Below, in pieces: positions 24,501 to 38,349 of a stretch of 64,000 bases of DNA. The DNA lies in contig JACKFJ010000002.1 of the NCBI GenBank assembly GCA_020632535.1, positions 190,331 to 254,330 on the forward strand, written 5' to 3'. The notes beneath the pieces were generated by a model. That model saw only the letters and a list, made by a program, of their open reading frames with translations. It did not search any database and was not told where the DNA came from. Made by a program: the position numbers and the translations under genes. This stretch comes from Candidatus Omnitrophota bacterium. Lineage in GTDB: Bacteria > Omnitrophota > Gorgyraeia > Zapsychrales > JANLHA01. The first letter of the stretch is position 1, and every line of letters starts with the position of its first letter.

Positions 24501-27500
24501 CACCAGCAAGCAATACTCTCTGGCGCAAAACCATCCCAGCCATGTTAAAAACATTTCCATCTTTCCCGGCAAATAATGTTTGTTTAAGATTTTTATCTGT
24601 TGAAATCGTTTGCTCAACATTAGTCCCGAACTGATTAATCTTGGAGTCGCGAATAATAAGATTAGCGTTTGCAAAACCTCTTCCATCGCTTGTCCTGTCA
24701 TACCCCATCATAAAAGATTGTGAGTTTAAAAATGGTTGTGCGCCACCAGAAAAGAGTGCGATGCGATCCGCCGGCGCTATACCAATCGCTGCCGCGGCTG
24801 ATGGAGCTAATGTTGCCGTCATTCTATAAACAAAATCTCGAATGCCTTCTGTGTTAAATAACGTTGCATTTTGCGAATTGGCAAGCTGGCCAACAGCCAT
24901 AACCTGATTCAATGGTGCCAATGCTCCAACCAAATTGACCAAGTCATCAGACGCGCCCATATTCTTAAAAGCTACGGAAGCATCTGCTCCAGCCTTAACC
25001 AACGCCATACCTGCTTCAAAGTTTTTTGCTTGCGAATTATTGACCGGAAGATCTAATTGAGTACTAAAATTCTGAAGATTAAATTGCGGGTCTTGCATAA
25101 AACGAAACTTTAACACAGTTAGAACATCTTTATCATCAACTTTACCGTCACTAAAGCCGGCTAAAAGCGGAATATTCCGAAAGGCAATATCTGTTTGAAA
25201 ACCATTGTTTAACTTGCCCTCTATAATAGAAGAAGCAAACATGCGATTAAAGATCATCGTCCCACCACCGACAACCGGAAGAACTGCTTGAAGAAGATCT
25301 GCTTTTTTAGGAATGCTTAAAAGCATGCCTAATCCTTGTCCGTCACCCAGCGCTGCGACAGCATCTTGATAAGCCTTATAATACCGTGCAGGTGCATTTG
25401 GTAATTTTTCAACAAGAGACTTATAACCTTCCCACGAAATTGTTACCGCTTTAATAAAGGAAATGGCGGTATCAATTTGATCAGCGCTCTTTCCTTCGCT
25501 GGCTAACTGTGCTCGGGCTGTTGCTTCGTCATTCGAAGTAAACTTGCCTTGAGTATTTGCAAGAAGCGTTTTAAACTCTTTGCTCTCTTCCCCGGTGAAA
25601 ACCAATTCAGCGCCTTTGCTTACTAAAAATTCTCCAAATTTTTGAGCATCAGATTTACCGATTCCCCAATAATCAATATCGCTCTGGCTAAAATTTGCTT
25701 TTGTAAATTGCACATTGCGCCACGAAGCCTCACCCTCGCCGTTGCGACTACCATAATCGACCGTTGCCTTAAAGCGATCTGACCAACCTTGCCCTCTAGC
25801 ATCATAATCATAGACCATCGGATTTTCCGACGTGCTGTGCCCAAACATCTTAAACGTCGTGTTGTCTTGTTCCATTGTTCTCACCGGACGATAAACAAAA
25901 CCTAAAGTATCACGGAAGAACACAACATCTTCAGGATCTGTGATTTTGCTCGAAACCATATATTCAAGCGCGCCCTTAACGTTTGCCAAAATTCCGCCAG
26001 AATTATAAAGATCAGGTCTTAAAAATCCGCCGGCAAGATTGGTATTAAACGTTTCAATCCAATAGTTATTTGCCCGCGCTCTATAATTGTTATCAAAAAC
26101 CGCAAGCCGTAAACCAATATCTTCTTTGCTCGCTCCCTGCGCGCGCATTGTTTTTATAATATCGTTGCGCTGTAAAGTTGTTTGCAATGAAAATCCTGTC
26201 GCCCGACTCCACTCATCCATAAACGCGGAAGCCTTCACAACACCCGGCGTGAAACTACTGCTATACGTATTTATTGCCTTTCCGCTTGCATCGTATTGGC
26301 CTTGTTCCTTCCAACCAATTTCACCCTGCGGTAACATACCAAAAAGATTATTCGGAGCGATACTTTTACCAAGGCTCACAAGTGACTCTTGAATACCATC
26401 AAGAAAATAATTTTGTTTTTGTGCCGCTTTTTCACCGCTAAACATTCCGCCATCTACCGTCAAACTGGCACTCTCAGAATCTAATGCGGAATCTTTAGCC
26501 AACCCAACACCAACAGCTGTTAATAAAAAGATTCCCATGCGCACTTTAGCAATATCGCTTGCGCTCGGCGGCTTGTTCGGGTCTTTGTACAAATGCTTTT
26601 CGGCTTTATCAACAACCATCGCGATTGCGGTACCAAATGAGTTTTGCGTACTAAGCCGAAAGAATTCCTCTTTGAAATCAATTTTCTTAGCAAACTTAAA
26701 TTTACCATCAGCAGCGTCAAATCTAATACTCCCATCCATCAAGGAAACTTCTTTTGTGCGACCAAGATCATCGATGTAAACAAATATCCCTGTTAAATTT
26801 CCTTTCTCATCTTTGTTTTCTTTAAGTAAGTTGACCTCTGGATGATATCCCAATGTCCCATTAAAGTTGTGATACAAAAGTCCAGCCAATGCACTGCCGA
26901 ACTCACCCGCTGCTTGCGACGCCAAAGTGTTGGCGCCAAAATTCTTTTTGTCTAGCTTTGACATAAGTTCACGAACAACCACACTTCCAACAACTCCAAT
27001 CAAACGACCTGTGACATTCGCATTTAATTTATCAATCGATTGCGAAAACGTATCCGCAATAAACCCTTCGTTGTATATCGACGCATCCAAAATATTCTTT
27101 TTTACGATATCGAACGAAGAATTTTTGTACGCATCAGTGGTGACATCAATCCCGGCATCAATATCCCACATTCTTGTCAAGTTAATTGCGCTCTCTGCCT
27201 CTTGTTTCGCGATATCCTTTCCTTCACGTCCCAACCCTAAAGTCTTTTTAGCTTCTTCACCAAAAAATTCAGCCGCGCCGACCAAGGCGTATTCCGCCGC
27301 GGCCGATGTCGCAATCCCAATTAAGGCCTGCTTTAACATCGGGTTCATGTTCGCACCCAATTGCTTATCTAAAAGTTTTGCTAATTTAACTTTGACATAA
27401 CCATTAATTAAGCCAATCCCTAAACTGCTCGGAAGTTTTTTAACAGCCTGATCCCATGTCAACAAAGGACCGCTCTCGCGCGCGAACATTTTCTTTAAAA

Positions 27501-29169
27501 ATTTCATCATCGGGCTTAACTTAGCAACTTCCTTACCGGCTTGAGCAACATCCATTGAGGCTTGGCCTAAAAGAGTCGTTCCCAAATCTATTCCAAAACT
27601 GCTCGCCAAATTTGTCGTCCAATTACCAAGCGAATCAAAACTATATTGCAGCATACTCACATCACCAAAACTTAAAACGCCGCTAAAAGCTTCACCCGTC
27701 AATAATTCAGACTGATTTAGAAAAACATCTTTAGTATCAAGCAGTGTCTGCGAAACATCACTAGCGCCGGTAACCCAAAGACTATCCATCGAATCAAGAC
27801 CTTGCGAGGCTACTTCAAGACGCCCCGCATCACCCCATCCCTCATAAGCCGCTTCAGTAGCTAAATTGCCAGTAGCGGAAAATGAATCTGCCAATGAACT
27901 GGCCGCGCCTTCGCCCAATTGAGTAAACCCGATTGACATTGCAATGTTTAAAATAAAAGCCGTGTCAGAACTACATGCTCCTTCAGAAACACAAAGCGCA
28001 GTTAAACTACCAGCAAGATCTGATGCCCCCATGGCAATAACACCCTTCATCAAAGAATTCGCCATAGCCTTTCCTGCCGCATCGCCGACTAACCCAGCAC
28101 CAGCAAAATAAGCACCCACAAAAAGCATTCCGATTTTAAGAACAAAACCAAAAAAGCTATCTCCGTCATCTTCCAAGAAAACCAATCTCTCGCCCGATCG
28201 ATCAACCCATTTATTACCCCAAACGAAAGCTTGCGCACTTTCCGATATTGTTTCAAAAGCAACATTTTGATTTTCAACTTTTGGAGCAAGAACAAAACCA
28301 CTTAAGTCTTTAATAAATTCATCGGCCGGCAAAATCTGTGATTTGCCGATATCCGTAAAGTAAACCTTGCCCTCATCGATCGCGTGAACCGTCACAAAAT
28401 GTTCAGATCCATAATTCGCGATAAAAGGTGTGGTGAGTTTTAAAACATCCGCCGGCTTAACCTTCATCGCCGCAAGTTGCAAACCATACCCCTTAACAAC
28501 TTGATCGATTGCATAAAGCGACGTTTTAAGTTTGGTTTCTCCCGGCCGCACAATGTCATTTAAAAGATCAATCGCCAAAGTCGCAACCGACAACTCTTCA
28601 AGATTGGTCACGATGCCGCGACTTAACAAAAGATCACGTAGTGAATAAACACCGCAATTGAGCGGATGAATGTTGGGATTGCTCAGCCACGCGTCAACCA
28701 AAGCCATTTGTCCTTGACTCACATCAACTTTAGAAATAACCCGAACACCATGTTGACCACTCGAGCCATCTTTGGCTGAAACACCAGAAAGGCTCAATTC
28801 AAGACTTGCGTTTTTCTGATAAGCGACTTTGTTAAGAATGTCATGAATTCCGAGAGCCAAACGAGCAGAAACAATTCTTTCGGCGGCAGAATCTTTTTCA
28901 ACAATTTTTTGTTGCGGATTTGTGTTGCCCCAGAGAACGGAAGGATTGTAATTAAAAGCCCAACTAACTTGATCAGGTATAAAAACTAAAAGCACGATTG
29001 CAGCAACAACACGCAACCATGCTTTGAAACGGCTATGAAATGGCACATACGGCGATCCTTCAGATTGGACATTATCAGTAATAGTAATACTAGTATCTGA
29101 TAATATAAGATCGTCTATGTGGGTTTGTGGGTTCATATTATACTGTATATGGTTTTTTGCTTGCCACAT
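1..29169 (-). CDS. Giant multidomain membrane-anchored protein, at least 9,712 codons in the window. The 3' end (C-terminus) lies beyond the left edge.
   Basis: I translated the minus strand by hand in the frame whose codons start at positions divisible by 3. It gave stop-free, protein-like sequence everywhere sampled: 29136-25620, 22080-21300, 18300-16740, 15120-14940, 13800-11640, 10680-10440, 7860-7380 and 6120-1. Every minus-strand ORF the track reports between 839 and 29136 is in one other frame (start mod 3 = 2) and none is in this frame. That is expected if this frame is a single ORF with no in-window stop. Candidate starts are ATG 29169 (longest ORF) and ATG 29136 (MNPQTHIDDLILSD...). 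Neither has a clear Shine-Dalgarno sequence. Confidence 0.85.
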   Translation of the reverse strand, partial: MWQAKNHIQYNMNPQTHIDDLILSDTSITITDNVQSEGSPYVPFHSRFKAWLRVVAAIVLLVFIPDQVSWAFNYNPSVLWGNTNPQQKIVEKDSAAERIVSARLALGIHDILNKVAYQKNASLELSLSGVSAKDGSSGQHGVRVISKVDVSQGQMALVDAWLSNPNIHPLNCGVYSLRDLLLSRGIVTNLEELSVATLAIDLLNDIVRPGETKLKTSLYAIDQVVKGYGLQLAAMKVKPADVLKLTTPFIANYGSEHFVTVHAIDEGKVYFTDIGKSQILPADEFIKDLSGFVLAPKVENQNVAFETISESAQAFVWGNKWVDRSGERLVFLEDDGDSFFGFVLKIGMLFVGAYFAGAGLVGDAAGKAMANSLMKGVIAMGASDLAGSLTALCVSEGACSSDTAFILNIAMSIGFTQLGEGAASSLADSFSATGNLATEAAYEGWGDAGRLEVASQGLDSMDSLWVTGASDVSQTLLDTKDVFLNQSELLTGEAFSGVLSFGDVSMLQYSFDSLGNWTTNLASSFGIDLGTTLLGQASMDVAQAGKEVAKLSPMMKFLKKMFARESGPLLTWDQAVKKLPSSLGIGLINGYVKVKLAKLLDKQLGANMNPMLKQALIGIATSAAAEYALVGAAEFFGEEAKKTLGLGREGKDIAKQEAESAINLTRMWDIDAGIDVTTDAYKNSSFDIVKKNILDASIYNEGFIADTFSQSIDKLNANVTGRLIGVVGSVVVRELMSKLDKKNFGANTLASQAAGEFGSALAGLLYHNFNGTLGYHPEVNLLKENKDEKGNLTGIFVYIDDLGRTKEVSLMDGSIRFDAADGKFKFAKKIDFKEEFFRLSTQNSFGTAIAMVVDKAEKHLYKDPNKPPSASDIAKVRMGIFLLTAVGVGLAKDSALDSESASLTVDGGMFSGEKAAQKQNYFLDGIQESLVSLGKSIAPNNLFGMLPQGEIGWKEQGQYDASGKAINTYSSSFTPGVVKASAFMDEWSRATGFSLQTTLQRNDIIKTMRAQGASKEDIGLRLAVFDNNYRARANNYWIETFNTNLAGGFLRPDLYNSGGILANVKGALEYMVSSKITDPEDVVFFRDTLGFVYRPVRTMEQDNTTFKMFGHSTSENPMVYDYDARGQGWSDRFKATVDYGSRNGEGEASWRNVQFTKANFSQSDIDYWGIGKSDAQKFGEFLVSKGAELVFTGEESKEFKTLLANTQGKFTSNDEATARAQLASEGKSADQIDTAISFIKAVTISWEGYKSLVEKLPNAPARYYKAYQDAVAALGDGQGLGMLLSIPKKADLLQAVLPVVGGGTMIFNRMFASSIIEGKLNNGFQTDIAFRNIPLLAGFSDGKVDDKDVLTVLKFRFMQDPQFNLQNFSTQLDLPVNNSQAKNFEAGMALVKAGADASVAFKNMGASDDLVNLVGALAPLNQVMAVGQLANSQNATLFNTEGIRDFVYRMTATLAPSAAAAIGIAPADRIALFSGGAQPFLNSQSFMMGYDRTSDGRGFANANLIIRDSKINQFGTNVEQTISTDKNLKQTLFAGKDGNVFNMAGMVLRQRVLLAGGATILDGTGGVFGYGKYLDDPNVAAKGFAKKMYAGAVDFSKDRSQKENSDITSLLSNINNIDTFFSASTPGDISKGKISIAGFGKDLKNSLNSEASTMNITLGEDGSLVNYSFKGYLQSASADVVNRFNLNPVAQVFYDRQKSAEGAKAMWTPTVFAGLGMPSQDLLLVNPNTGLLDISMPGTQVPMTEQGAVLNHGVLFANGTPGLVPSSQAIVATLKSKENFVENIPGQVGVSGTSNASIVIGAAKSTTKESVRDLEARLIIPGTIMREGAIVMSDKGTLIMPLDGGKGVVYDAIVSTDKSSIDHNGANVVSFNDVSYAIALSNDKIVKGFDGKVTGGAILGAAQIKWNKGAGAYAALAELKTGPQDQQRLLLAQGIDVNQLISGTYYAGQAAIKDGQITFTPQEKQSIPVLSLTNKGSLQGYTDQKVWDLLFAFAKAKNPAEHEAVLNTLSAALGKSSSSNEKPATTSTDKITLVGTDMPFFNLAQGKLSVALNIDSGTLSPMLDQAFSENRVIFNKAPVQLVLPAPEGGAMLLMANSSRSGDMTLNKTSKDGRTVIDFMPVNKGEGGLTAFGLLGKGGTHEGKVDAQLFLTAFAKEDGSGSMGIKGGSLVALTGQNKDFEAGQDSYVRTGAKGTSLENMQNLKIGALNVEKGGKIAFLGTEGLLYNPQSQEALGLKDKKADKKSKDGEKVTGTTVNRALWNIAEDTFAVGEDVNQALRTRSPKGMKYSASQLAIYADFNSLFAVNLQAPGSIYFAEGRQIRNAAKTDPLTFSMELKGKEGTFVKQRVNFTDVINQNRLAAIGFSANGSCLFGNIDGNFRSKGNFSDNKNGLKRNFHNMDIAGRAFADSYGALQYRMVKADGNVSVEGDMYASSSGVLADGREMNQTHKMYAGLPGRSGKVFVKHLDDAGLYLLLDKNGAVVKDRNGKPVYEHREDANMDAKDLRLVNRLSNKMNYTIDGITDLYGQATRYYSVNGKVMSLDSNDLDARDRRLMPTIDRKDIFVLNGELVDGRTLTDDQKKSAKSLDADNTYLVGKTVVSGTENLDARDLRHAKALKINPSEGAERPYIGQALLVSGAGWMDSLMPSSGGVGGGEKAVVRTDSGVETSFTQYGHLANLTIAKNMPLVFGEFKTIAGGTTLVQNGLTIFNAKMDASGRVVAGTDTAVPVGAKIDYVNVLRQGGKVGEYKYDEVHQNFVSTLKFDSNYGLGGYATDLKAIDAYKFTSAGTKEQGFVGRDLNGQAIFLSQANPTHEAICPTCKTPNGVTAFVTLKLIGTDYSNFKIERLSPFAVDSKGSAVAGGFYADSQNAGGLVFLPAGQSAKETYSAKGADGKAVTRTVKYTATEKGISSPELLQINGVDIKEYAAKQVVKSGTTLKSGEQVISQRLDGIAQGKAFYTVTIGNKQQEVSVGVDLVEHSMAGSDKAKVETIAFKKPTMTIATQFGEVEVELKAAGGTLEQTNKVVVTQALKNAVIKELTAKGNKTEEIDLTNLNATLDDRGIIFAGVAIKKVVDTAVGEWQKTAGGAAVGIAPKSAASAPFVISQEYNQLVFDGKTMREKEDTYAIADLGRGLVGAGYQLLADARKLNANYNFDPEYRATVDGYQKAGDAMIAEAIYNSPRLVGSLDLMGNNLGNLSQTITGHFVANLASGILPDSWANTAYDWGNEGFKNYSGNRLGQVSATEFMTDVYMSAALVIPGVAPSLFKFGAPSTSGLLRSSAIWGGVAGGGDWAIQYFNHPNDINWTEVAVVTGGALFGYAALRGASQAIQVKVLGNLQVAKAIVPSEGVAANIAKGAVGGFDGAEGALMANAAMKALDFSFPTTRAIFAGNVAKIESISGISNFGFVKHVVLPAALDGVLVDGVGTAYLITAAQHAADPTKFQTNGVLDFGTVGTNFTSNFVSVGLPVGVFSMSARVLSSPLAAQAFEKSGIGVRAYNFAVLKEWNIFKHEGHAALVAKVASTRSAAKADLLAARLAGTGTGSPLPVLSVSREIAVDSVKAYKLAQANLLKAETSLYSSALGFSRVAQPFAGGLGYTAFGNVIENTFQVANSKDHKTFSFGDNMISTRVLGNFALGAGFASIPMLTGSLAARGWRVNPGAAGAVGGAVIFPTSKYIEGKFSGDTYTTDDYIRFVLLGAASGGVLAKAAQGGLRRGQDSVFINRIFMGKDAAALQVNKYGLVNASLFGGGTNLIAGLANEIYVSKDYSLNSDSLKKIGINVAIGSAGASAILVSGRALAWAPDKSSGLAKAIGTIEETGRVRSVAEVLTTPFVNTTPLKKVGNYAVRWAGYPVAGAFIGGAIGGVNDKLAGNNFWGQGMAVGAGQGAYVGGIFALMTTAVPLNKYGADISKAITKVYDNPALMTMTRGGVTTEALRKDADLLKYSVFEGAKKWAAVAVSFEAANSVIESGINKLKGEDSTLKVKMRVWDPVKGAFYTEEDAQKAGVQPVREYALLSREGLMTLAFSGMAAPQSGYFMHSGIGFGMKQPGIVNEMKGRVSSVDMAMAQSGLATKAIAGVYNMINPAKTSEFMYGIRKFQTTQLGRNVAFWDGTFYMAGATAAIHKGAGLAGFDENGAVAQALGWIGFVGLPSKKFNDTGLVMNKVNNMAFTNTVAQRYNIKLSAAELGNRDKVGLITKEVSAELQKGGLTDAQAKKLETEKTILDMFASTLGVTDRVRSAEFMSQDLATTISVQNSAYQAAGGEINQVRGDFLRFTDLFTQLSKTQDVAGRNRVINEFIKTNYAGANAISPEHQRKFEEDAKKVLGFGEKETGPTRTALAEGDVKTHVENLAKVETQLDSQIALSVKKFQDAVGDGSFKDTIDVFATAQGPRTQSDFAQRLAQFEHTVAKSIGTRAGVKDLSGADLALVGDMAINRANWFKSAEIGKNETAAKVDAARTSNSSFVTEVENIVKSAGSSTDAQIQISKLIEFNANFVGPVRPGTLRTSEGLLATAQEVVKSKMYDVALNNGKAEKPAALSALPEFSNLSKTFLALAQMKDKVTTVSQIAEKQENLEAADKFIDVLQGVMKDPTLARTYFAHPYSRNATTYEEVVGAYSGTRKSLFENNGIDGMAWSASQRKVQENTSTLKDRENVLVGGVNTLNSKIATLESQISSVTKEIERRQSRVRMGNSIQRAQSIAALQSKKAELTDLISQQSKLSGELSSLSGELEVVTAKLNLSQGLQDRMAKATTLAEQDKFFGKEAVTAEAARNLNILVSILKQSDTARSSEELTGDFGARHSKVKVAVKAMEAELKSLRAEEKVLQAQADSKSADASEYQALAQQVREQIKFLEVALSGSLGSREGAQSFEKRMASAKTAEEQNDFLMERTLTPEQKQHQEEFRAIVKEVNDLSGDRLLSGLDTELALRMAEAKRNSLQADISLLVASNQGRRYESSPLTEAQAHEFILTGRLRETAQYMQLSRQAVQAQATVRKPEVSLWDITNYTAWRETPDGIVSTVRSVPAIYREAKTRYENNRSSREIAQIAALEHRLFDNLVKQLPSETIAKFKDMSVERNAQGEWSIATTSQDQKTLEYTSQLNDLVKNAVQNKGFNQASQDTYIGLTNALKQLKSPGELVYFGTDAKKTSFVAPIMAVMAVSMGRDGVRNLKGATLVAPGSSQIGQTLEGVMSVSETGWVPNENGKGKKLAKGHEGNGYTTYTITRAGQKDIQVLVLDSSNTNKYNASEVAGEIKKSDIIITARQAYEAILLSAQTEHEGAIGSSGKSGYTELANALGRDRIGIFDEAHQYPNEPGMIFGDLAKKIEDVKRVEGVKTVFRFLFDEAGAKGISQYMKELQNNPEFLNSSERNQEAKFNPKNFVDGQFREWKARTTLKDKSRANEVEITSEEQSMLNGVADALTMTRGGLQKGYDIMRTVVDTAVQDPKHPDYNREMELVVPTVEGKGVANMRWSAWHIAVARQIVPRLLTPEAFKSSAPVRSVNDVMNLVDSAVRISPSSVRMSALQVVSNTSYRVLLTGTPLMAAAFAQLHGVKMPAESTVDLQNALIDRNALSYVQNISRVNAAGAGHEVVSSHVAGARLKHDLLVGYGSEKYELGQVLRGMVDQISTNGKLNNDVVIMVGDKAEVYKAGEATVEQVLARRPSEEITSGLARNYFQTNVEKSLMILDKANLEGFDTSIKPIDSASSAKLTKIKNDTTLSVEQKAQQSKDVRDASDMMQYVAIFDKANEALHATHFEQVMARARGVFGEGEYFYPLGSAGQVNGKPVKLANNRSIVFLDKDAAKATVLEAGDREVLRDRLQANETQAGLDARHSALRDVLQENGANYFRNMLEIARKNKSGDEGVILEMLKKYQSDVNVDDSKYLSEEGVSLSLLNAQVKRIEGLVKKAIGPLYDRIEDSQVRQYADSAMKITSQIKPFETGTSDGKVGGTEATNLLPKLTLHEATQEIARMFTATELASRVTDGSNGRVEQYYESAPTVAAKAGNLQLAARLRTDLRARHDFAEFMAGYGLTSEGGKALANIIQITQNPIPQSATTGAFNGIKNTWNSTSYVLENGSFSDAMSASKQYFPGSSSANNTQKQVMEVLQELAQDQALWNDRPSVTNYLGSRNIVMPEVKAGQKAVDQSPVMNSWFDDIAKRIDAKIGANHKTMVEQKVKEEDVKKAVYQYFGLTPEQIQHFQGVYSFLQGSALYKRTAVEPVMPQHIMGVLSAFQNDLPRGILVLTQQVATDDQYRQSLARVTSRLEGNLAGGSEGALRQAVQEANIEAIAQGLVTLAKQGRSKDTDEKAKATKRLAQIKDQISVRYGVRSANTTALHAEIDEIYAAVQGDESLKATDVVQLMQQKIAGPSLYKEFSINTESTKAEEARIITDRLQSISNADFNAVTEAIKTQLQSPIPTIPATIAPSMQWIYNFVLTDAIDIKSDQGNALTPQREQEARLARLQQVQIIRGERKNENQEFSYDHFKATAPALNQYIVKQAGGLIEDLAQGLTVSARVSPSQKPVEQPIRLVSLDDTRRLLQLGGGSAEHTSRVLNATASVLGEELAMAMPLNYYSDRDKMLVYLNAARDRIGEDNNLSLKDEQRFDKALTIAGRKPSLEKPSAYFQRKLLSTMPAGQGRDYLTYLLTGDTFEYQTDSDARVARLRQSSPYALRNVIPVVRSRFVDSKTVTDMKAHASLVKGWGSLTAIIEKHDASLVSLKPIARSAVVSLMANALTKALNDVTDEPYLDSRNFVRVQSAFDQKLKDAGISDEARRELSSTIFGLNGQELELAKANLDVMRFNKALSHAKVAESDLPSVSVYEVVSPNYTDRQPELFSVDSPYLVNLTVAKVKEMAVASGISEEQAFVKILGTPELLKASTDQYVSALRTSLIDKLGKELKQATEGKSAEEVAIINNEFENKVAQLEENLAKLQPAQATYVAQAQKLVATTSGQEQAKEVYRNVASALTNLDNDGHIAELIKLAYTNADMSKEQEQAVTLVSTVLNNQLVSNNAWVYTDAGTMYRHGEALAEAQQISKDGPFIVKVNPRAVNRYSGRLDATLLHHDRGHEVAGHLTLDAISKMNPEQARPYLEAFAQFINDDGQFFADLSDLQMAELNVQKDDALSEVQKLQSQITALRAEKVVDFEAVKNLRDQITAQHNKVLGSVLRFGDNKTANEFFATYVGLKFWLHNSGLVQGHQKVANAEVFESLSMNDMLPVRSLFGRSDFAFINELASMPYSRFRDILSQRRPDIAIQSDKHQETIAQSTGKEIVRDAVGNVVEIKPRTTTAREQQQIAGGGPDDLLKAASQIPPSSSAVVVAGGKDPELVAGGPDKANSILRLASRPVAVGGPKKVVGSAVLESNSPAKPSNASGAQKVTKKAGSFNAPKPTAKPGAESGEVTFEGGARKLASKAVEADKEGKGKGRPGDGDFHPWANHYTSQAGTAPAKVDTSFSSLNILALNTSGNFAKGMNVSSVAATAVYGMAGSSYNSQAQASSSSSSLNSLTSSANAVLQNSGVSNLNNGGFADSVNSVSSSAATQAIVSNNIGSQPVLNGGLVAPVGGTNDGSINEVYAGSGMASNTMTQNINGNNSTSLPSATANLNATSPTRTFVNNTTPLNFGMPANANLATPSAAKDFSSHVLGFSNLLPPMAPQIILPISFNGLKSPAVGVLPNIEKSTSALASTSPVGSMIQASSQIVERGPVDATFASEENLEGILKISQVRDLLNGDAQFIKNIIDQSFGRPVFVRLDNVAPENNDDLVSLVKELGEENSVYIFNPQFDGLQKVTQEGALQDVAIAEAGSGLVLVDSNFKPWSASVAVRQFAANSVLDPRIILFNVDRDKVFEVVNLTVKDVLNVDQELIGLSSQDREEAAKRFGQIKGEKYVLRATPQTAQAYAGKIIQTADNKFVLMLNADGTIPTVKSTNNILSGVSSEESENVIQSLGILLAGAVAVEIEKQTDQALPIIKVPASLALVTQTVKWAELLTESNTRLAAELTAQSTTKLAAVQAPVKVKAPTSLAERVANAFLKKPAAAISKPAVVQTPVIAKPATVAVVSTSQARKISSTVGSVFVASSSVAEGQELVNFYLEKAEKKFADKATGVIPLITVTAASALVYDSATLKKAVQFAGNNSVYIVEAGKIYTVDAQGNISQSGTAEDVLKGGLVLVALEDQNAKVRFLDAADAAKRKVALSPEDILKNAIALSVNASGAPVAAPIVAPSVPAIVPTMPTLTPALPLSVSSPLVANGIMDREQGIAQLVKTLPNDQNLWLAVLDVDKIGVLNTLAGGLTGNGKEKVNVKLGVMLSAIAEIAKSYGGYAFRLYTGDEVAVVLPSSFSTQEEVANILGEMKSRIDPLDVYFSAGVVKANDAGVNEGNDVHQWFGAMLVAANQRLQFAKDNGGDAVSFEAAEIVHTHDKGIETSKPGVEIALKDSLAQRLANGPRVLSEAYAGQSIYSDQIESEYGVLKQEAFHGLIANALTAGKEFIIVKVSPQFSPDGRIADFLATKTSAERSDLTVLFDEHVRFKAINSVFGYKGGDQAILSIVDSIEKSLQQLSIPNVIQARAPPEEGLVAIPINGYNPDQVLQLFGEFADAIEANFKTVNDLNPRILISIVDTRDFAHTSEGDLAPFHALELLKLTQHAPLGLTTTGGNFVKLYTSDRYDVIFAEAQSFEATKQQLAQEIYAKYKVGINEKRGSTKGSSAVESVGSVFVASSSALSPEEARDYYTDKAEKALVKLPSSLIILSGPEAVLTSLDSIEKFVEFSKKGIFVALVSGGFISSLGKDITYTPDQIKQGLVIVVDQAATTVRYRDADKKKDISRAEQIKEFIALSAKPAVEGNANVGTIEVPTLTPILTPAIPVPAPLAPPTMQLPPTFFISLAVTNPGIPFDSGEHSEDKNSQKAIPISAPNLPGPTSSNLPPDPNTGNGNTGGNTGPKAPTAIVLASAKVFHSAADLYASSYAKPDNQNTVLNRNAGADKQGTTRFASTGLSPTPLTASSLSSKASEAVETERTRNTVVEVNASRIVKSSKVTKETEVRNSSIRSVSRNIGFGAFAAILVPGLFGEVAKVVVNIAKSGIESIRKVVETNSSSSLNVVLGVLPEASRGASSVTAGTKVEASGLFQNVLDLIREYAVKVSVVLKVASQSVVHTVNVVRSRSRSIRSDVVAALAVKMADQSSKGNKVSSNSKDDANYVVVKGSRSVRTNDNTIQVVKVLEVRAGLTLLKKLALILVVLGRAIRSEYNAVIDVLAGTFDVSYVSEGELVRLSAVRAASAINTSNNILGRSIKASSAVLGLWVSSREGKTAGAIRVSSIIIKASSSPVREQKKRNNTTNVENSFSGNKSLYKSLLDLGFLVKNIAAQAYFFATGFVTVIVSKLIANHLARSELNSSNSLVASATPSQAKSAVTSVITLNSKVNTRTLNSLANVAKAVWGIFVGKSNNVNNHLQTGGLQWLHLIPVSSKQEKRMTTSNSSILSMFHVVIVSLAQPKSAQVVNRFSSLSLTTKGRFIAATALVGRGLSFATRMNTQAYASFSLKQLQTKAFRATQQRQSYNLAKLAKVGPIGVGIVALTVSTPAMAVAATIDVVAISTLGLVAVLVAAVGLVVVAALSAHVKHAFVTTEKRRTMFVNILREGLRPSVGAAMVVFGIFNLPVAASIVPLSIFAAAGVSAVLPYIFPAIVILAGVGLILKAVAGALAKTAIAGFITNVKMLSKLSVPQILGLWVIFGRAYV
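527..838 (-). CDS. Hypothetical 103-aa protein, embedded out of frame in the open giant reading frame
   Basis: The track ORF reads MVTLNTRIVETGKTYDNIEFKYLIDVPRCDCVFGSAKERASGK.... A canonical SD precedes it (ACAGGAGGTCTACA-ATG). Third-codon positions are T/C-rich like the verified genes here, whereas the giant frame becomes A/G-rich at third positions across this stretch. It is the only minus-strand track ORF in this frame (start mod 3 = 1) within the 29 kb. Confidence 0.5.
   Translation of the reverse strand: MVTLNTRIVETGKTYDNIEFKYLIDVPRCDCVFGSAKERASGKSLLFLVFNHKGKIYRRNGLSGTWVELRNENEYSSVRELLLKAITDKGVPCYTTASKLQLS
2698..3075 (-). repeat. Internal duplicated protein module, copy 1 (~126 aa), followed by a Pro-rich linker
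   Basis: The module reads VGSVFVASSSALSPEEARDYYTDKAEKALVKLPSSLIILSGPEAVLTSLDSIEKFVEFSKKGIFVALVSGGFISSLGKDITYTPDQIKQGLVIVVDQAATTVRYRDADKKKDISRAEQIKEFIALS. It is followed by TPILTPAIPVPAPLAPPTMQLPP (about 2569-2640). It aligns with the copy at 4579-4992. Confidence 0.65.
3385..3650 (-). other. Degenerate GGDEF-like domain 2 of the giant protein
   Basis: LTVLFDEHVRFKAINSVFGYKGGDQAILSIVDSIEKSL matches the FKxiNDxxGHxxGDxxL half of GGDEF. ...ARAPPEEGLVAIPINGYNPDQVLQLFGEFADAI has PPEEG in the position of GGDEF, so the domain is probably inactive. Confidence 0.4.
4100..4390 (-). other. Degenerate GGDEF-like (nucleotidyl cyclase fold) domain 1 of the giant protein
   Basis: The translation reads NLWLAVLDVDKIGVLNTLAGG...VNVKLGVMLSAIAEIAKSYGGYAFRLYTGDEVAVVLPSSFSTQEEVANILGEMKSRI. 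This parallels the GGDEF layout (xxLDiDhFKxiND ... aRyGGDEFxvllp ... a-helix). TGDEV (4210-4224) sits in place of GGDEF. Confidence 0.45.
4579..4992 (-). repeat. Internal duplicated protein module, copy 2 (~138 aa), followed by a Pro-rich linker
   Basis: The module reads VGSVFVASSSVAEGQELVNFYLEKAEKKFADKATGVIPLITVTAASALVYDSATLKKAVQFAGNNSVYIVEAGKIYTVDAQGNISQSGTAEDVLKGGLVLVALEDQNAKVRFLDAADAAKRKVALSPEDILKNAIALS. It is followed by PVAAPIVAPSVPAIVPTMPTLTPALP (about 4465-4560). Confidence 0.65.
12540..13800 (-). other. SNF2/DEAH-box helicase-like motif set inside the giant protein
   Basis: A Walker-A-like FGTDAKKTSF lies at 13747-13767. Motif II, IGIFDEAHQY, has DEAH at 13267-13278. An SNF2 motif-III-like SYRVLLTGTPL lies at 12568-12588. 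The spacing between motifs II and III is about 230 aa, far longer than in canonical SNF2. The P-loop is non-canonical (K in place of the second G). Confidence 0.4.
14340..15250 (-). other. Coiled-coil-like segment of the giant protein
   Basis: Sampled translation is rich in Q, E, K, L and S with a heptad-like character: MAEAKRNSLQADISLLVASN, IQRAQSIAALQSKKAELTDLISQQSKLSGELSSLSGELEVVTAKLNLSQGLQDRMA. Confidence 0.4.
16740..19900 (-). other. Gly/Ala-rich hydrophobic block of the giant protein, with possible membrane-embedded or glycine-zipper segments
   Basis: Sampled translation includes GNFALGAGFASIPMLTGSLAARGW, NPGAAGAVGGAVIF, WAGYPVAGAFIGGAIGGVND, GQGMAVGAGQGAYVGGIFALMTTAV and EVAVVTGGALFGYAALRG. 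Small-xxx-small motifs recur in hydrophobic runs. Confidence 0.4.
28282..28719 (-). other. Peptidase C39-like (papain-fold cysteine peptidase) domain of the giant protein
   Basis: The translation reads ...NIHPLNCGVYSLRDLLLSRG...TTPFIANYGSEHFVTVHAIDEGKVYFTDIGK...FIKDLSGFVLA. The NCG (Cys161) and EHFVTV (His246) spacing and context match the C39 / C39-like catalytic Cys and His motifs. Confidence 0.55.
28972..29025 (-). other. N-terminal transmembrane or signal-anchor segment of the giant protein
   Basis: Residues ~38-55 counted from ATG 29136 read KAWLRVVAAIVLLVFIPD. This is a hydrophobic stretch of about 18 aa preceded by basic residues. Confidence 0.6.
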
Positions 29170-29183
29170 AATGTCCAATCTGA
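29060..29183 (-). promoter_or_regulatory. Perfect 16-bp inverted repeat pair enclosing the start codons of the giant gene
   Basis: TCAGATTGGACATTAT lies at 29060-29075 and ATAATGTCCAATCTGA at 29168-29183, with a 92-nt spacer. The spacer contains ATG 29136. ATG 29169 overlaps the upstream arm. The pair could be an mRNA stem or a pair of protein operator sites. Confidence 0.55.
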
Positions 29184-29198
29184 TATTGAGCGTGGCAA
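29168..29198 (-). promoter_or_regulatory. Weak candidate sigma70-like promoter overlapped by the motif
   Basis: On the minus strand, TTGCCA (29198-29193) is followed by a 19-nt spacer and CATTAT (29173-29168). The spacer is at the long limit and the -10 hexamer matches 4/6. Confidence 0.2.
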
Positions 29199-29353
29199 GA
29201 TGGAATTAATACAGCCTTGGGCTTGATGAAGGAATTGAAAATACGCCCAAAGAAGCTGTAAGTAAGAATATTTCTCAAAACGAATTGAGAATTGAAAACA
29301 AAAAAAATCAGGGTTTGCGTGTTTATTTTCACTTTTCCCATAAATTTTGAAAG

Positions 29354-29382: not shown

Positions 29383-29730
29383 CGTATTACGAGTATATCA
29401 TTTATATAATATAGCGCAAGTTCATGGCAAAAATATTTTATACTGTATCTTGTTGTTATCCAAATTGTTATGCGCGAATTAGAACTTTTTTTGATATTTT
29501 ATAAAAAATATTTTCAAAAACCATTTTTTTCACCAAAATTATCGTAAAAAATACACTATTTTTAAGCACAAAACATCTCAATAGATACACAAAAATACCA
29601 CATATAATTTGCGCACTTTTTTATCAATTAAAAAAATTTCCATGTCATTAAAAGCTTTCAAACTAATCAATTAATTTTTGCAAAATTACAACATCATTTT
29701 CATAAATTTTATGCAATAATAAAAATAAAA

Positions 29731-29766
29731 ATGTCCAATCTGACAAAAATATTCAGATTGGACATT
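29731..29766 (-). terminator. Intrinsic terminator after tadC, built from the recurring motif
   Basis: ATGTCCAATCTGA (29731-29743) and TCAGATTGGACAT (29754-29766) form a 13-bp perfect stem with a 10-nt loop. The stem begins 25 nt after the tadC stop. On the minus strand it is followed by TTTTTATTTTTATTATT. Confidence 0.7.
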
Positions 29767-29791
29767 AAAAGAACAGTATTGTGCCTAAAAA

Positions 29792-30682
29792 TTACTTTTT
29801 AACGCCGCCGCTTGCCATGCTTTGCATCGGATTCGTTTCAATAAACTGTAAGAAAATTGGACCAGCCACCAAAACACCGACAACAGGAAAAATGAAAAGC
29901 AAAAGAGGAACCAACAGTTTTATTGGAGCCTTCATGGCTAACTGTTCACCGCGGCGAAAACGCGCAAGACGCATATCTTCCGAAAGACGATTTAATGCTT
30001 CGGAAACCGACGTCCCCATCTTATCAGCCTGAATCAGGGTCCGAGAAAAACTAGCCATTTCCGGAATATCATATTTTTGCGCCATATCGCGCAAAGCATC
30101 ACGTCTTGTTTTACCGACATTGATTTCCTGCAAAAGAACATTAAGCTCACTGACCATGACCGATGGCGGAGACTTTTCAACAACCCATTTTAACGCCAAC
30201 ATAAAATCAAGGCCGGCATTAACGCAAAGCCCTAAAAGATCGATAGCATCAGGCATTTCCTTTGTCATAATCGCCTTCACACCCTTAATTTTTCCCTTAA
30301 GCCAATATTCCGGCGCCATATATCCAACAGCCAGCGACATCATAATCCAAAATGTCATCATGTCAGGCTTAACCATCGGGTAAGTCAAAACCAAAATTGC
30401 GACAATAAGGACTTCTTTAATAAGAAAAAACTCTTCCGGAGTAATCGGCACGTGCCCGACACTCAAATCCTTTAAAATTCTTTGACGAACAACGCCTTGG
30501 CAAAGAGGCTTATTGATCATCGCGATCCCGCGAATAATCGAAAAATTTGATTTCTTTGTTGCTTTTGGCAATTCATATCCAAAAGATTTTAAGGTCGGGC
30601 GGCTCTCCCACTCCGGCGGAAAAAATCCGAGAATAAAACTAAATCCCGCAACAAAACACAATGTTAAAATAAAATACAGCAT
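29792..30682 (-). CDS. tadC: Tad pilus inner-membrane platform protein TadC (T2SS F family)
   Basis: This is a 296-aa polytopic protein with a GspF/T2SSF-like core: MPDAIDLLGLCVNAGLDFMLALKWVV...EINVGKTRRDALRDMAQ...FSRTLIQADKMGTSVSEALNRLSEDMR...APIKLLVPLLLFIFP. It lies next to tadB. Confidence 0.8.
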   Translation of the reverse strand: MLYFILTLCFVAGFSFILGFFPPEWESRPTLKSFGYELPKATKKSNFSIIRGIAMINKPLCQGVVRQRILKDLSVGHVPITPEEFFLIKEVLIVAILVLTYPMVKPDMMTFWIMMSLAVGYMAPEYWLKGKIKGVKAIMTKEMPDAIDLLGLCVNAGLDFMLALKWVVEKSPPSVMVSELNVLLQEINVGKTRRDALRDMAQKYDIPEMASFSRTLIQADKMGTSVSEALNRLSEDMRLARFRRGEQLAMKAPIKLLVPLLLFIFPVVGVLVAGPIFLQFIETNPMQSMASGGVKK

Positions 30683-30700
30683 TTAAATGTTTTCTCCGTT

Positions 30701-31585: not shown

Positions 31586-31960
31586 TTATTGACACAAAAC
31601 ATCATTTTGACATTTGGCTTTGCAAACCTCACAACGATCATGATATTCCGGTAACGCCACGCCATCACCACGAATCAACGTGCAATCGCAATTGTTGGCT
31701 TGATAACATTTTTCATCAACCCAATGCCCACTCGCTGAATCATAAAAACAATCCAATGTCCCGCCTATTTCACCGTTAACACCAAACTCGCGCGGGTCAT
31801 ATTGTCGCCCCTGTCCAAAAGTATCCCCAACAGCTTTCCATCGTCCAGCCATACCACGCTTAATATACCCACCAAAACCAACCATAATCGCGAGAATAAG
31901 AATAATCACCGCCGTAACTTCTACCGCCGAAGATCCTTTTTTAAAATTCTTTATTTGCAT
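31586..31960 (-). CDS. Pilin-like protein with a Cys-rich C-terminal domain
   Basis: The N-terminus, KKGSSAVEVTAVIILILAIMVGFGGYIKRGMAGRWKAVGDTFGQGRQYDP, is paralogous to the Flp-type pilins at 37.2-38.8 kb. The C-terminal half has 8 Cys (CFYD...CYQANNCDC...CEVCKAKCQNDVLC). Confidence 0.6.
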   Translation of the reverse strand: MQIKNFKKGSSAVEVTAVIILILAIMVGFGGYIKRGMAGRWKAVGDTFGQGRQYDPREFGVNGEIGGTLDCFYDSASGHWVDEKCYQANNCDCTLIRGDGVALPEYHDRCEVCKAKCQNDVLCQ

Positions 31961-31966
31961 TTGCTT

Positions 31967-35683: not shown

Positions 35684-35714
35684 TCAACCAAAGCCTTTCG
35701 TTAAATCCAATTTA

Positions 35715-35999: not shown

Positions 36000-36011
36000 T
36001 TTCCCAAATTT

Positions 36012-37250: not shown

Positions 37251-37258
37251 TATGAATT

Positions 37259-37576: not shown

Positions 37577-37591
37577 ATTAACCTCGATCAA

Positions 37592-37936: not shown

Positions 37937-37945
37937 AACTGACCC

Positions 37946-38323: not shown

Positions 38324-38349
38324 GTCAATAGCCCACCTTCGAAAAAAAA

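What the first reader, a model, noticed from the sequence alone, without database searches (positions are those of the whole stretch)
28282..29025. Signal-anchor plus C39-like cysteine peptidase at the N-terminus of the giant protein
A single TM helix (aa ~38-55) is followed by a domain with the C39 hallmarks: NCG with Cys161, EHFVTV with His246, and a downstream (V)YFTD. In C39-domain ABC transporters this fold cleaves double-glycine leaders. At the head of a 9,700-aa polypeptide it suggests autoprocessing, or processing of partner proteins, at the membrane surface.
Basis: partly seen in the sequence, partly recalled or inferred. Interest (0 to 1): 0.58.

Follow-up and report, generated by a model that had tools for sequence, protein, structure and literature searches.

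The report
C39 protease head of giant protein
The start of this more-than-9,700-residue Omnitrophota protein really does carry a membrane-tethered C39-type cysteine protease, but such heads on these giant proteins have already been described, and what the protease cuts is still unknown.

Summary
On the minus strand, from ATG 29136, a stop-free ORF of at least 9,712 aa begins with a charged leader and a hydrophobic helix (aa 38-58). A domain follows with NCG (Cys161), EHFVTV (His246) and YFTD (Asp262).

It is a genuine C39 papain-fold peptidase. It matches Pfam PF03412 above threshold, the best structural matches are ComA, LahT and PCAT1, and Cys/His/Asp align with ComA C17/H96/D112. Cys and His are almost invariant in about 160 diverse relatives. 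The canonical oxyanion Gln is not conserved, there is no ABC transporter, and the domain is predicted to face the periplasm.

Only this head (aa 1 to about 400) is conserved among 47 long orthologues; the body is hypervariable. In 56 of 62 informative loci the gene follows tadB-tadC of a Tad-type pilus operon.

The giant protein shows no enrichment of double-glycine sites, and no small double-glycine-leader gene lies nearby. Self-processing therefore remains an inference.

West-Roberts et al. (2023 preprint) already reported N-terminal C39 domains, the upstream secretion locus and the autoproteolysis idea. This is a new member of a known kind.

Side finding: a conserved 13-16-nt motif is about 100-fold enriched in the 1.65 kb around giant-gene starts.
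The parts
1..29136 (-). Giant ORF, at least 9,712 aa, truncated by the window edge. Apart from the C39 head it has almost no Pfam matches, and it contains only 6 Cys.
   Evidence: Stop-free frame 29205..1; start and numbering; Pfam finds only PF03412 plus a sub-threshold GGDEF hit; Cys positions 161, 382, 388, 2358, 2804, 2807.
27907..29136 (-). Conserved 'head' module, aa 1 to about 410. It comprises the leader, signal peptide/TM1, an alpha/beta extension, the C39 core, a WG linker and 2-3 hydrophobic helices with a CxxxGxC loop. It is the only part conserved across orthologues.
   Evidence: All 47 long orthologues align over aa 1-300 and 43 over aa 301-400. Only 2-8 align beyond aa 400.
28957..29031 (-). 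Signal peptide or TM1 (aa 36-60). The n-region has R36, K38 and R42, the h-region spans 43-53, then P54 and S58-W59-A60|F61, a signal-peptidase-I-like site.
   Evidence: Hydropathy. AF2 helix 36-61. A mean of 3.15 K/R before the h-region against 0.95 after it, in 79 homologues. The motif is at least 90% conserved in A1. Caveat: it was the scan pattern used.
28684..28917 (-). Family-specific N-terminal extension of the domain (aa 74-151): a long helix, a beta-hairpin and a helix ending at invariant W150.
   Evidence: AF2 secondary structure H74-104, E111-116, E129-134, H141-151, with block-mean pLDDT mostly 74-95. W150 is invariant.
28237..28683 (-). C39 papain-fold peptidase core (aa 152-300). 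The catalytic residues are Cys161 (28654-28656), His246 (28399-28401) and Asp262 (28351-28353). A family-specific insertion of about 15 residues lies around aa 186-205 (D190, G199 and K204 conserved).
   Evidence: Pfam PF03412. Foldseek hits to 6mpz, 3k8u and PCAT1 with target TM-score about 0.70. hhalign to ComA gives C161=C17, H246=H96, D262=D112, N155=Q11.
28216..28221 (-). W306-G307, an essentially invariant motif in the conserved linker between the domain and the next membrane helix.
   Evidence: W in 79/80 and G in 80/80 sequences. pLDDT drops after aa 310.
28087..28155 (-). Hydrophobic helix TM2 (aa 328-350), which tethers the domain to the membrane.
   Evidence: Hydropathy peak of 1.82. 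A hydrophobic segment follows the WG motif in most homologues, most often 2 or 3 segments, so their parity is unresolved.
27973..27993 (-). C382-x3-G386-x-C388 motif between hydrophobic segments. It holds two of the only six Cys in the protein.
   Evidence: Conserved in 61/80, 65/80 and 57/80 sequences; Cys list.
29792..31558 (-). tadC-like (29792-30682) and tadB-like (30701-31558) platform genes immediately upstream. This synteny is conserved.
   Evidence: Pfam T2SSF. tadC lies upstream on the same strand in 56 of 62 loci with at least 3 kb of upstream sequence.
31586..47643 (-). Rest of the Tad-type pilus operon. It contains the RcpC/CpaB gene, a secretin (+TonB_C), a fused ParA-like+T2SSE ATPase, DUF192, a 578-aa unknown, about 7 Flp-type pilins with G|xxxxEY sites, and minor-pilin-like 94-, 412-, 1238- and 124-aa proteins. 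No A24 prepilin peptidase is in the window.
   Evidence: Pfam; N-terminal sequences.
29060..29183 (.). Perfect 16-nt inverted pair TCAGATTGGACATTAT / ATAATGTCCAATCTGA with a 92-nt spacer, bracketing the giant gene's start codon. It is a candidate cis-regulatory element.
   Evidence: I3. The RNA fold has a z-score of -5.2. The motif is enriched about 100-fold in the 1.65 kb around giant-gene starts in related loci.
29730..29767 (.). The same motif as a 14-nt perfect hairpin with a 9-nt loop, followed by a T-rich tract on the coding strand, just after the tadC stop. It looks like a terminator.
   Evidence: I7; sequence read directly. The consensus terminator scan did not flag it because the loop exceeds 8 nt.

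Best explanation
Window 28282-29025 (minus strand) encodes a genuine and probably active C39-family papain-fold cysteine endopeptidase domain, with Cys161, His246 and Asp262. An N-terminal Sec-type signal peptide or anchor (aa 36-60) places it on the periplasmic face of the inner membrane. The hydrophobic helices that follow (from aa 328) hold it there.

Together these elements form a head of about 400 aa. This head is the only conserved part of a family of otherwise hypervariable Omnitrophota giant proteins. Their genes sit directly after tadB-tadC of a Tad-type pilus/secretion operon.

The mechanism I think most likely is limited proteolysis at the membrane surface directed at the giant protein itself, acting as a maturation or release protease in cis or between neighbouring copies. 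It would not be classical double-glycine leader removal coupled to ABC export.

Shown: the fold, the aligned and conserved catalytic residues, the N-terminal position, the synteny and the conservation pattern. Inferred: the periplasmic orientation, catalytic activity and the substrate.
For: Identity:
- Pfam PF03412 scores 29.4 bits against a cut-off of 22.
- The AF2 model has pLDDT above 90 over the domain.
- The 15 best Foldseek PDB hits are C39 peptidase domains of LahT, PCAT1 and ComA, with probability 1.0 and target TM-score about 0.7 for the isolated domains.
- hhalign of the family against ComA gives 95.3% probability, with C161=C17, H246=H96 and D262=D112.

Signs of activity:
- Cys161, His246 and Asp262 are invariant in 82 sequences.
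- Among 167 domain instances from about 160 proteins, most of them 50%-identity cluster representatives, Cys is present in 158/160 and His in 156/157 of the ungapped instances.

Head of a giant protein:
- In 74 of 80 loci the ORF runs stop-free to the end of the stored DNA, up to about 3,700 aa.
- The core starts within the first 300 aa in 98% of 161 family members.
- The family has 214 cluster representatives at E<=1e-30.

Conservation and synteny:
- Only the head is conserved: 47/47 orthologues align over aa 1-300 and 2-8 of 47 beyond aa 400.
- tadB-tadC lies upstream in 56/62 informative loci.

Orientation:
- There are 3.15 K/R before the h-region against 0.95 after it.
- The protein has almost no Cys, 6 in 9,712 aa.

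A self-directed role fits the facts that the enzyme is always fused to the giant protein and that no separate double-glycine-leader substrate gene is nearby. The same hypothesis is published in 10.1101/2023.11.21.568195.
Against: - No cleavage site has been identified.
- Double-glycine-leader-like motifs are not enriched in the giant protein (6 against 4.9 +/- 2.1 expected).
- The conserved LPG motif in the linker after the domain is absent from this window's own protein.
- The canonical oxyanion Gln is not conserved and its segment is deleted in about 45% of the wider family. Kinetics or specificity may therefore differ from known C39 enzymes.
- The Pfam match covers only model positions 45-129.
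- The topology rests on the positive-inside rule and hydropathy only. The number of helices after the domain is unresolved, so it is unknown which side of the membrane the body lies on.
- I could not inspect model coordinates to check the geometry of the catalytic triad.
Confidence: 0.5

Rival explanations
1. The domain is a trans-acting processing protease for partner proteins handled by the adjacent Tad-type machine. Candidates are the minor-pilin-like 124-, 94-, 412- and 1238-aa proteins, pilins, or other periplasmic cargo. It would be tethered next to the TadB/TadC platform.
For: The synteny with tadB-tadC is tight and spans many divergent genomes. The partners are conserved in the same loci. 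Known C39 enzymes act on separate precursor proteins (general knowledge of ComA, LagD and PCAT1). West-Roberts et al. list this as the alternative.
Against: The pilins and minor pilins carry ordinary Flp-type G|xxxxEY sites, which are cut at the cytoplasmic face by A24 peptidases. They do not carry double-glycine leaders. No conserved GG/GA/GS motif is shared by these proteins. A hairpin followed by a T-tract after tadC, and mobile elements inserted between tadC and the giant gene in other loci, suggest separate transcription.
Confidence: 0.25
2. The domain is a prey-directed effector protease: the C39 domain is released or exposed and cuts proteins of the prey or host cell during predation.
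For: A papain-like toxin with a C39-like fold (PDB 9l5u) is among the structural neighbours. Omnitrophota giant proteins are proposed predation factors.
Against: The domain sits between a signal peptide and membrane helices at the extreme N-terminus, so it is tethered to the producer's inner membrane. It is the most conserved part of the protein, whereas effector domains in polymorphic systems are usually the variable part.
Confidence: 0.08
3. The domain is a non-catalytic C39-like binding or chaperone module, as in HlyB-type type I secretion. It would hold an unfolded part of the giant protein during export.
For: HlyB and Vibrio C39-like domains (3zua, 3b79, 7sgr) are also structural neighbours. 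The oxyanion Gln is missing. West-Roberts et al. mention this precedent.
Against: The defining feature of such C39-like domains is loss of the catalytic Cys. Here Cys is present in 158/160 and His in 156/157 diverse family members, and both are invariant in 82 close members. The best structural matches are active peptidase domains.
Confidence: 0.07
4. The domain is a substitute prepilin peptidase for the Flp-type pilins of the operon, since no A24 (TadV/CpaA) gene is present in the window.
For: No Peptidase_A24 hit was found among the ORFs scanned with Pfam. At least 10 proteins in the locus have class-III-like leaders ending in Gly or Ala.
Against: Prepilin cleavage occurs at the cytoplasmic face, whereas the domain is predicted to be periplasmic. 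P2 at the pilin sites is K/N/Q/S, not Gly. The A24 gene may simply lie elsewhere in the genome, which I could not search.
Confidence: 0.03

Closest known systems
Omnitrophota giant proteins with N-terminal C39 domains next to a conserved T2SS/Tad-like locus (West-Roberts et al. 2023, bioRxiv 10.1101/2023.11.21.568195; also a 24-protein PF03412 architecture cluster in bioRxiv 10.64898/2026.06.07.730766)
   Same: The ORF is longer than 20 kb. A C39 domain lies near the N-terminus beside a predicted signal peptide. The upstream locus holds a secretin, a GspE-like ATPase, GspF-like genes, rcpC, a Rotamase_2 PPIase and small class-III-signal genes, all present here. The body has few recognisable domains. 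The autoproteolysis hypothesis is the same.
   Different: No SecA_DEAD domain is detected in the 9,712 aa held in the window, though the C-terminus is missing. This analysis adds residue-level detail not stated in the passages I read: the invariant triad, the missing Gln, the periplasmic orientation, the head-only conservation and the lack of double-glycine-site enrichment.
Peptidase domains of double-glycine peptidase-containing ABC transporters (PCAT/AMS): ComA (3k8u, 8hf7), LahT150 (6mpz), PCAT1 (4ry2); MEROPS C39 / Pfam PF03412
   Same: The papain-like fold is shared. The catalytic Cys lies at a helix N-terminus in a 'CG' motif. His and Asp have the same spacing (Cys to His 85 against 79 residues; His to Asp 16 against 16), and all three align to ComA C17/H96/D112.
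   Different: The domain is not fused to ABC transmembrane and ATPase domains. It is predicted to be periplasmic rather than cytoplasmic. It is preceded by a signal peptide and an alpha/beta extension of about 80 residues. It has an insertion of about 15 residues at aa 186-205. The oxyanion Gln (ComA Q11) is Asn here and variable or deleted in the family. No double-glycine-leader substrate is evident.
Cysteine proteases that process giant bacterial adhesins or toxins: LapG acting on LapA, and the cysteine protease domain of MARTX toxins (functional analogies from general knowledge, not homologues)
   Same: In each case a cysteine protease performs limited proteolysis that releases or matures a very large surface or secreted protein. 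LapG acts in the periplasm near the N-terminal anchor of its substrate. The MARTX protease domain is embedded in the substrate polypeptide.
   Different: The folds and families differ (C93 and C80 against C39). No cleavage site, regulator or activity is known here. The resemblance is only a hypothesis about the way it works.
HlyB-type C39-like domains (3zua, 7sgr) and standalone C39 proteins such as FapD and FilB (NCBIfam NF058616, NF050078)
   Same: The C39 fold is used outside bacteriocin export. FapD and FilB are linked to fibre or pilus systems (family descriptions).
   Different: HlyB-type C39-like domains lack the catalytic Cys, whereas here it is conserved. The FapD and FilB profile scores are 12.6 and 11.7 bits against cut-offs of 330 and 475, so this domain is not a member of either family.

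Membership tests
Peptidase C39 (Pfam PF03412 / MEROPS C39) | Profile match above the curated threshold | tested here: met
   29.4 bits against a gathering score of 22, E 8e-7. Only model positions 45-129 of 133 are matched. PF03412 is precomputed for 25 of 28 homologues.
Peptidase C39 (Pfam PF03412 / MEROPS C39) | Papain-like C39 fold | tested here: met
   The AF2 model (domain pLDDT above 90) matches LahT, ComA and PCAT1 peptidase domains over 136-146 columns, with probability 1.0 and target TM-score 0.65-0.73 for the isolated domains.
Peptidase C39 (Pfam PF03412 / MEROPS C39) | Catalytic Cys, His and Asp at the positions of ComA C17, H96 and D112 | tested here: met
   hhalign pairs C161/C17, H246/H96 and D262/D112. 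HMMER against LahT pairs the same residues, but the Cys segment on its own scores -1.8 bits and is not significant. All three are invariant in 82 sequences. In the wider family (ungapped instances) Cys is 158/160, His 156/157 and Asp 127/155, with Glu in 12.
Peptidase C39 (Pfam PF03412 / MEROPS C39) | Oxyanion-hole Gln six residues before the Cys (ComA Q11) | tested here: not met
   The aligned residue is Asn155. The column reads N17/D17/E17/S9 of 82, and it is deleted in 74 of 167 wider family instances.
Peptidase C39 (Pfam PF03412 / MEROPS C39) | Cleavage after Gly-Gly/Ala/Ser of an N-terminal leader | not testable with these tools
   Only indirect evidence is available. There is no enrichment of leader-like double-glycine motifs in the giant protein. 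There is no double-glycine-leader ORF in the tadC-giant gap. The pilins have Flp-type sites.
PCAT/AMS bifunctional ABC transporters | C39 domain fused N-terminally to ABC transmembrane and ATPase domains, on the cytoplasmic side | tested here: not met
   No ABC_membrane or ABC_tran hit was found in 9,712 aa. The charge distribution around TM1 predicts a periplasmic domain.
HlyB-type non-catalytic C39-like domain | Catalytic Cys replaced, giving an inactive domain | tested here: not met
   Cys is conserved in 82/82 and in 158/160 sequences.
Omnitrophota Tad/T2SS-linked giant proteins (West-Roberts et al. 2023) | ORF longer than 20 kb with a C39 domain near the N-terminus beside a signal peptide | tested here: met
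   The ORF spans at least 29,136 nt. The C39 core is at aa 152-300, after a signal-like helix at aa 36-60. Homologues come from MAGs labelled Omnitrophota, or labelled Planctomycetales, Elusimicrobia or Caldithrix by their submitters.
Omnitrophota Tad/T2SS-linked giant proteins (West-Roberts et al. 2023) | Conserved upstream secretion locus (secretin, GspE/GspF-like genes, rcpC, Rotamase_2 PPIase, class-III-signal genes) | tested here: met
   All are present at 29792-48645. The synteny is conserved in 56/62 loci.
Omnitrophota Tad/T2SS-linked giant proteins (West-Roberts et al. 2023) | Embedded SecA_DEAD-like domain and downstream pilZ genes | tested here: inconclusive
   No SecA_DEAD hit was found in the part of the ORF inside the window. 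The C-terminus and the downstream genes lie outside the window.
FapD / FilB standalone C39 peptidases (NCBIfam) | Profile score above the curated cut-off | tested here: not met
   12.6 bits against 330, and 11.7 bits against 475.

The most novel reading that the evidence does not exclude
The signal peptide-C39-transmembrane head may be more than a generic leader peptidase. It could be the conserved 'handle' of a new export and maturation route for megadalton proteins. In this reading it docks the giant protein at the TadB/TadC platform of the co-located Tad-type machine. Its Gln-less C39 domain, with altered specificity, then cuts the hypervariable body free (or excises itself) at the periplasmic face. 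This would explain why only the head is conserved and why the gene always follows tadC.
Probability: 0.12. Interest if true: 0.75.

Novelty: new member of a known kind. Interest (0 to 1): 0.3.

Why it matters
Omnitrophota giant proteins (about 10,000 to more than 100,000 aa) are among the largest proteins predicted in biology. How they are exported, and whether they work whole or in pieces, is an open question raised in the preprints that describe them.

The C39 head is the one conserved and recognisable enzymatic part. It is about 250 residues long and is the obvious target for experiments on processing. This analysis shows that it keeps its Cys-His-Asp triad, probably faces the periplasm, lacks the canonical Gln and has no obvious double-glycine substrate.

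The feature itself is not a discovery. Its presence, the neighbouring secretion locus and the autoproteolysis idea are already in the literature.

Tried and rejected
- Chance motif match: rejected by the Pfam, hhalign and Foldseek results.
- Polyprotein with recurrent double-glycine sites: a regex for hydrophobic residues at -12, -7 and -4 plus G[GAS] gave 6 hits against 4.9 +/- 2.1 in shuffles. GG, GA and GS dipeptides are not enriched.
- Small double-glycine-leader precursor gene between tadC and the giant gene: none. The 650-bp gap is AT-rich and non-coding. Larger gaps in other loci hold transposase, ATPase and toxin-antitoxin genes.
- Short stand-alone C39 proteins: P0012 (568 aa on a 91-kb contig) lies in a run of fragmented same-strand ORFs. 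It is probably a frameshifted giant gene and not a separate protein.
- A24 prepilin peptidase in the window: not found.
- FapD or FilB membership: far below the cut-offs. A literature search for FilB and C39 was uninformative.
- Proteomic evidence for cleavage: a literature search returned nothing beyond the West-Roberts preprint.
- Rfam found only a tRNA in the window. The promoter and terminator consensus scan of the 5' region found nothing above background.
- Conserved W-[GA] motifs (W59-A60, W69-G70, W306-G307) as self-cleavage sites: I considered this but cannot test it. Interfacial aromatic residues flanking membrane helices are the simpler explanation.

Full report
**1. The observation**

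The feature is on the minus strand. A stop-free frame runs from 29205 down to base 1 and leaves the window. Taking ATG 29136 (MNPQTHIDDL...) as the start, the protein is at least 9,712 aa. The six closest homologues (L002-L007) align from residue 1 or 2, which supports this start.

- The hydrophobic helix FKAWLRVVAAIVLLVFIPD lies at aa 37-55.
- NCG is at 160-162, EHFVTV at 245-250 and YFTD at 259-262.
- I checked the codons for Cys161 (28654-28656), His246 (28399-28401) and Asp262 (28351-28353) against the raw sequence.

**2. Is it a C39 peptidase?**

Four independent lines agree that it is.
- Pfam PF03412 matches at 29.4 bits against a curated cut-off of 22 (E 8e-7). The match covers only model positions 45-129, which hold the His and Asp half.
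- phmmer and a family profile find the LahT double-glycine protease (6mpz) in the PDB. His and Asp are aligned. The NCG segment is also placed on LahT's ECG, although that segment alone is not significant.
- An AlphaFold2 model built on 26 homologues has pLDDT above 90 across the domain. Its 15 best Foldseek hits in the PDB are C39 peptidase domains of LahT, PCAT1 and ComA. They have probability 1.0, 136-146 aligned columns and target TM-score about 0.7 for the isolated domains. A papain-like toxin and the non-catalytic HlyB-type C39-like domains follow.
- hhalign of an 82-sequence family alignment against the two ComA peptidase domains gives 95.3% probability (E 6.5e-9). I confirmed the ComA sequences against PDB 8hf7 and 3k8u. 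The alignment pairs C161 with C17, H246 with H96 and D262 with D112.

The spacings also agree: Cys to His is 85 residues against 79, and His to Asp is 16 against 16.

One hallmark is missing. ComA Gln11, the oxyanion-hole residue, aligns with Asn155. That column reads N/D/E/S in the 82 sequences, and it is deleted in 74 of 167 instances of the wider family.

Relative to ComA the family also has an insertion of about 15 residues (aa 186-205; D190 and K204 invariant and G199 near-invariant in the 82 sequences) and an N-terminal alpha/beta extension of about 80 residues.

**3. Is it likely to be active?**

Cys161, His246 and Asp262 are invariant in 82 sequences, as are N160, W150, D190 and K204. 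A wider set comprised about 160 proteins, most of them 50%-identity cluster representatives. Among ungapped instances in that set, Cys is present in 158 of 160, His in 156 of 157 and Asp in 127 of 155, with Glu in 12. This argues against a HlyB-type inactive C39-like domain, which is defined by loss of the Cys.

**4. Topology**

The helix at aa 36-60 has the anatomy of a Sec signal peptide.
- The n-region is positively charged (R36, K38, R42).
- The h-region has 11 residues.
- Pro54 follows, and then S58-W59-A60|F61 forms a -3/-1 site.

Across 79 homologues the 15 residues before the h-region carry 3.15 K/R and 0.16 D/E on average. The 20 residues after Pro54 carry 0.95 K/R and 1.4 D/E. By the positive-inside rule the N-terminus is cytoplasmic and the C39 domain periplasmic. 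I have no tool to decide whether the helix is cleaved.

After the domain comes a conserved linker (A303-F-x-W306-G307...), then a hydrophobic helix at 328-350, a partly conserved C382-x3-G-x-C388 motif and another hydrophobic segment. Most homologues have two or three such segments, so the side on which the body lies is unresolved. The whole protein has only six Cys. From general knowledge that pattern is common in exported proteins.

PCAT C39 domains are cytoplasmic (general knowledge from the PCAT1 structures). The ABC-export analogy therefore does not carry over.

**5. Context and family**

Upstream on the same strand lies a Tad-type pilus operon. It contains:
- RcpC/CpaB, a secretin and a fused ParA-like/T2SSE ATPase;
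- DUF192 and a 578-aa protein of unknown function;
- about seven Flp-type pilins with G|xxxxEY sites;
- minor-pilin-like proteins of 94, 412, 1238 and 124 aa;
- TadB and TadC.

Further upstream are a PPIase gene, mdh, gyrA, gyrB, dnaN and dnaA, so the locus is near the replication origin.

Protein searches found relatives almost entirely in MAGs labelled Omnitrophota. A scan of GTDB species genomes gave 102 loci, of which 80 were kept.
- In 74 of these 80 loci the ORF continues without a stop to the end of the stored DNA, up to about 3,700 aa.
- In 56 of the 62 loci with at least 3 kb of upstream sequence, tadB-tadC precede it on the same strand.
- An exhaustive profile search found 214 cluster representatives at E<=1e-30. 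The C39 core starts within the first 300 residues in 98% of 161 family members.

Only the head is conserved. All 47 long orthologues align with the window protein over aa 1-300 and 43 over aa 301-400, but only 2-8 align beyond aa 400. The nearest relatives are 71-74% identical in the head. For L003, identity falls to about 40% over the first 3,000 residues.

**6. What does it cut?**

I found no candidate substrate.
- Leader-like double-glycine motifs occur 6 times in the giant protein against 4.9 +/- 2.1 in shuffles, and GG, GA and GS dipeptides are not enriched.
- The 650-bp tadC-giant gap has no plausible small gene. Larger gaps in other loci hold mobile-element genes.
- The pilins have normal Flp prepilin sites with K/N/Q/S at P2, which are cut at the cytoplasmic face by A24 peptidases.
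- No A24 gene is in the window, but it may lie elsewhere in the genome.
- The conserved LPG motif in the linker after the domain is absent from this window's own protein.

I still favour self-directed limited proteolysis (maturation or release), for two reasons. The enzyme is always fused to the giant protein, and the head is the only part under strong constraint. This step is an inference. My separate estimates are about 0.9 for identity as a C39-fold peptidase, about 0.7 for a periplasmic location and about 0.35 for self as the substrate.

**7. Comparison with the literature**

West-Roberts et al. (bioRxiv 10.1101/2023.11.21.568195) make the following statements.
[quoted passage not shown] - The giant genes are preceded by a conserved secretion locus with gspD/E/F-like genes, rcpC, a Rotamase_2 PPIase and small class-III-signal genes.

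A 2026 preprint (10.64898/2026.06.07.730766) lists a 24-protein PF03412 architecture cluster among Omnitrophota long proteins and notes Tad cassettes beside giant genes. Seymour et al. (PMC10066038) describe Tad complexes and poorly conserved giant ORFs in the phylum.

The finding is therefore a new member of a described kind. This analysis adds the residue-level assessment, the predicted orientation, the head-only conservation, the quantified synteny and the negative result on double-glycine sites.

**8. Side observation**

A 16-nt motif occurs as six exact copies of its 11-nt core in the window, against about one expected. On the coding strand it reads ATAATGTCCAATCTGA.
- One perfect inverted pair brackets the giant gene's start codon (29060-29075 and 29168-29183).
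- One 14-nt hairpin followed by a T-tract sits just after the tadC stop (29730-29767).
- Two direct copies lie inside the 578-aa ORF.

In the 80 related loci the 13-nt core (at most one mismatch) occurs 77 times, in 42 loci, within -1500 to +150 of the C39 match. It occurs only 7 times in the remaining 1.1 Mb, roughly a 100-fold enrichment.

The mRNA around the start codon folds with the two arms paired (z-score -5.2). Arm changes are sometimes matched in both arms (L003, L004, L010) and sometimes not (L002, L006). A symmetric protein-binding site and an RNA or DNA hairpin therefore both remain possible.

**9. Limits**

- The ORF is truncated by the window edge.
- The topology rests on simple rules.
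- Model coordinates could not be inspected, and two fold libraries were unavailable.
- The FxPxQxSWA motif was the pattern used to collect the 80 loci. Its 100% conservation there is partly circular, although it is at least 90% conserved in the independently collected alignment A1.

Noticed in passing
window 29060-29075, 29168-29183, 29730-29743, 29753-29767, 40694-40709, 40763-40778; related loci L002-L078, mostly within 1.5 kb upstream of the giant-gene start: A 13-16-nt motif (ATAATGTCCAATCTGA on the coding strand) has six exact copies of its 11-nt core in the window, against about one expected. One inverted pair brackets the giant gene's start codon, and another forms a terminator-like hairpin after tadC. 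In 80 related Omnitrophota loci it is about 100-fold enriched in the 1.65 kb around the giant-gene start (77 hits in 42 loci, against 7 hits elsewhere). It may be an operator for a regulator of giant genes, a translational-control stem, or a REP/MITE-like repeat.
   Followed up: partly
window 39874-41610 (-) and giant protein aa 21-27: The 578-aa ORF of unknown function has a weak N-terminal HTH_32 hit. It carries two in-frame copies of the motif, encoding DNVQSEGE and NNVQSA. The giant protein's N-terminus has DNVQSEG, encoded by the same DNA motif. A nucleotide element therefore seems to be imposed on coding sequence in both genes.
   Followed up: no
window 28957-29000 (giant protein aa 46-60) and homologues: The end of the signal/TM1 helix and the first mature residues (F52-x-P-[DE]-Q-x-S-W-A-F-N-Y-N-P) are more conserved than most of the protease domain, which is unusual for a signal-peptide cleavage region. 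This may mark a specific recognition site. The conservation in the 80 loci is partly circular because this motif was the scan pattern, but it is at least 90% in the independent alignment A1.
   Followed up: partly
window 1-29136 (-): The giant protein is extremely poor in cysteine: 6 Cys in 9,712 aa, one of them the catalytic Cys161 and two in the conserved C382-x3-G-x-C388 motif. In contrast the neighbouring 1,238-aa minor-pilin-like protein (31967-35683) is visibly Cys-rich.
   Followed up: partly
window 42402-44564 (-) and 44575-46803 (-): The Tad ATPase is a fusion of a ParA/MinD-like (TadZ/CpaE-like) domain with the T2SSE (TadA/CpaF-like) ATPase. The secretin carries a C-terminal TonB_C domain.
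   Followed up: no
window 48735-63884: The Tad/giant locus lies close to the replication-origin gene set: dnaA (58088-59446), dnaN (56830-57918), gyrB, gyrA, yidC, parA and parB. A tRNA lies at 51320-51393. Seymour et al. place the V. archaeovorus Tad locus at genome positions 12-30 kb, which suggests a similar arrangement.
   Followed up: no
loci L009, L019, L042, L075, L081 (between tadC and the giant gene): In loci where the tadC-giant gap is 2-6 kb, it holds transposase-like, AAA_14/DUF4143-type ATPase-like and toxin-antitoxin-like ORFs on either strand, judged from their sequences. One search shows AAA_14 and DUF4143 Pfam hits in the same position in L001. The intergenic region seems to be an insertion hot spot, and the giant gene probably has its own promoter.
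   Followed up: partly
protein P0072 (3,237 aa): One family member carries three internal copies of the C39 core (aa 619-773, 1643-1795 and 1856-2001) instead of a single N-terminal one. This is an exception to the head-only architecture.
   Followed up: no
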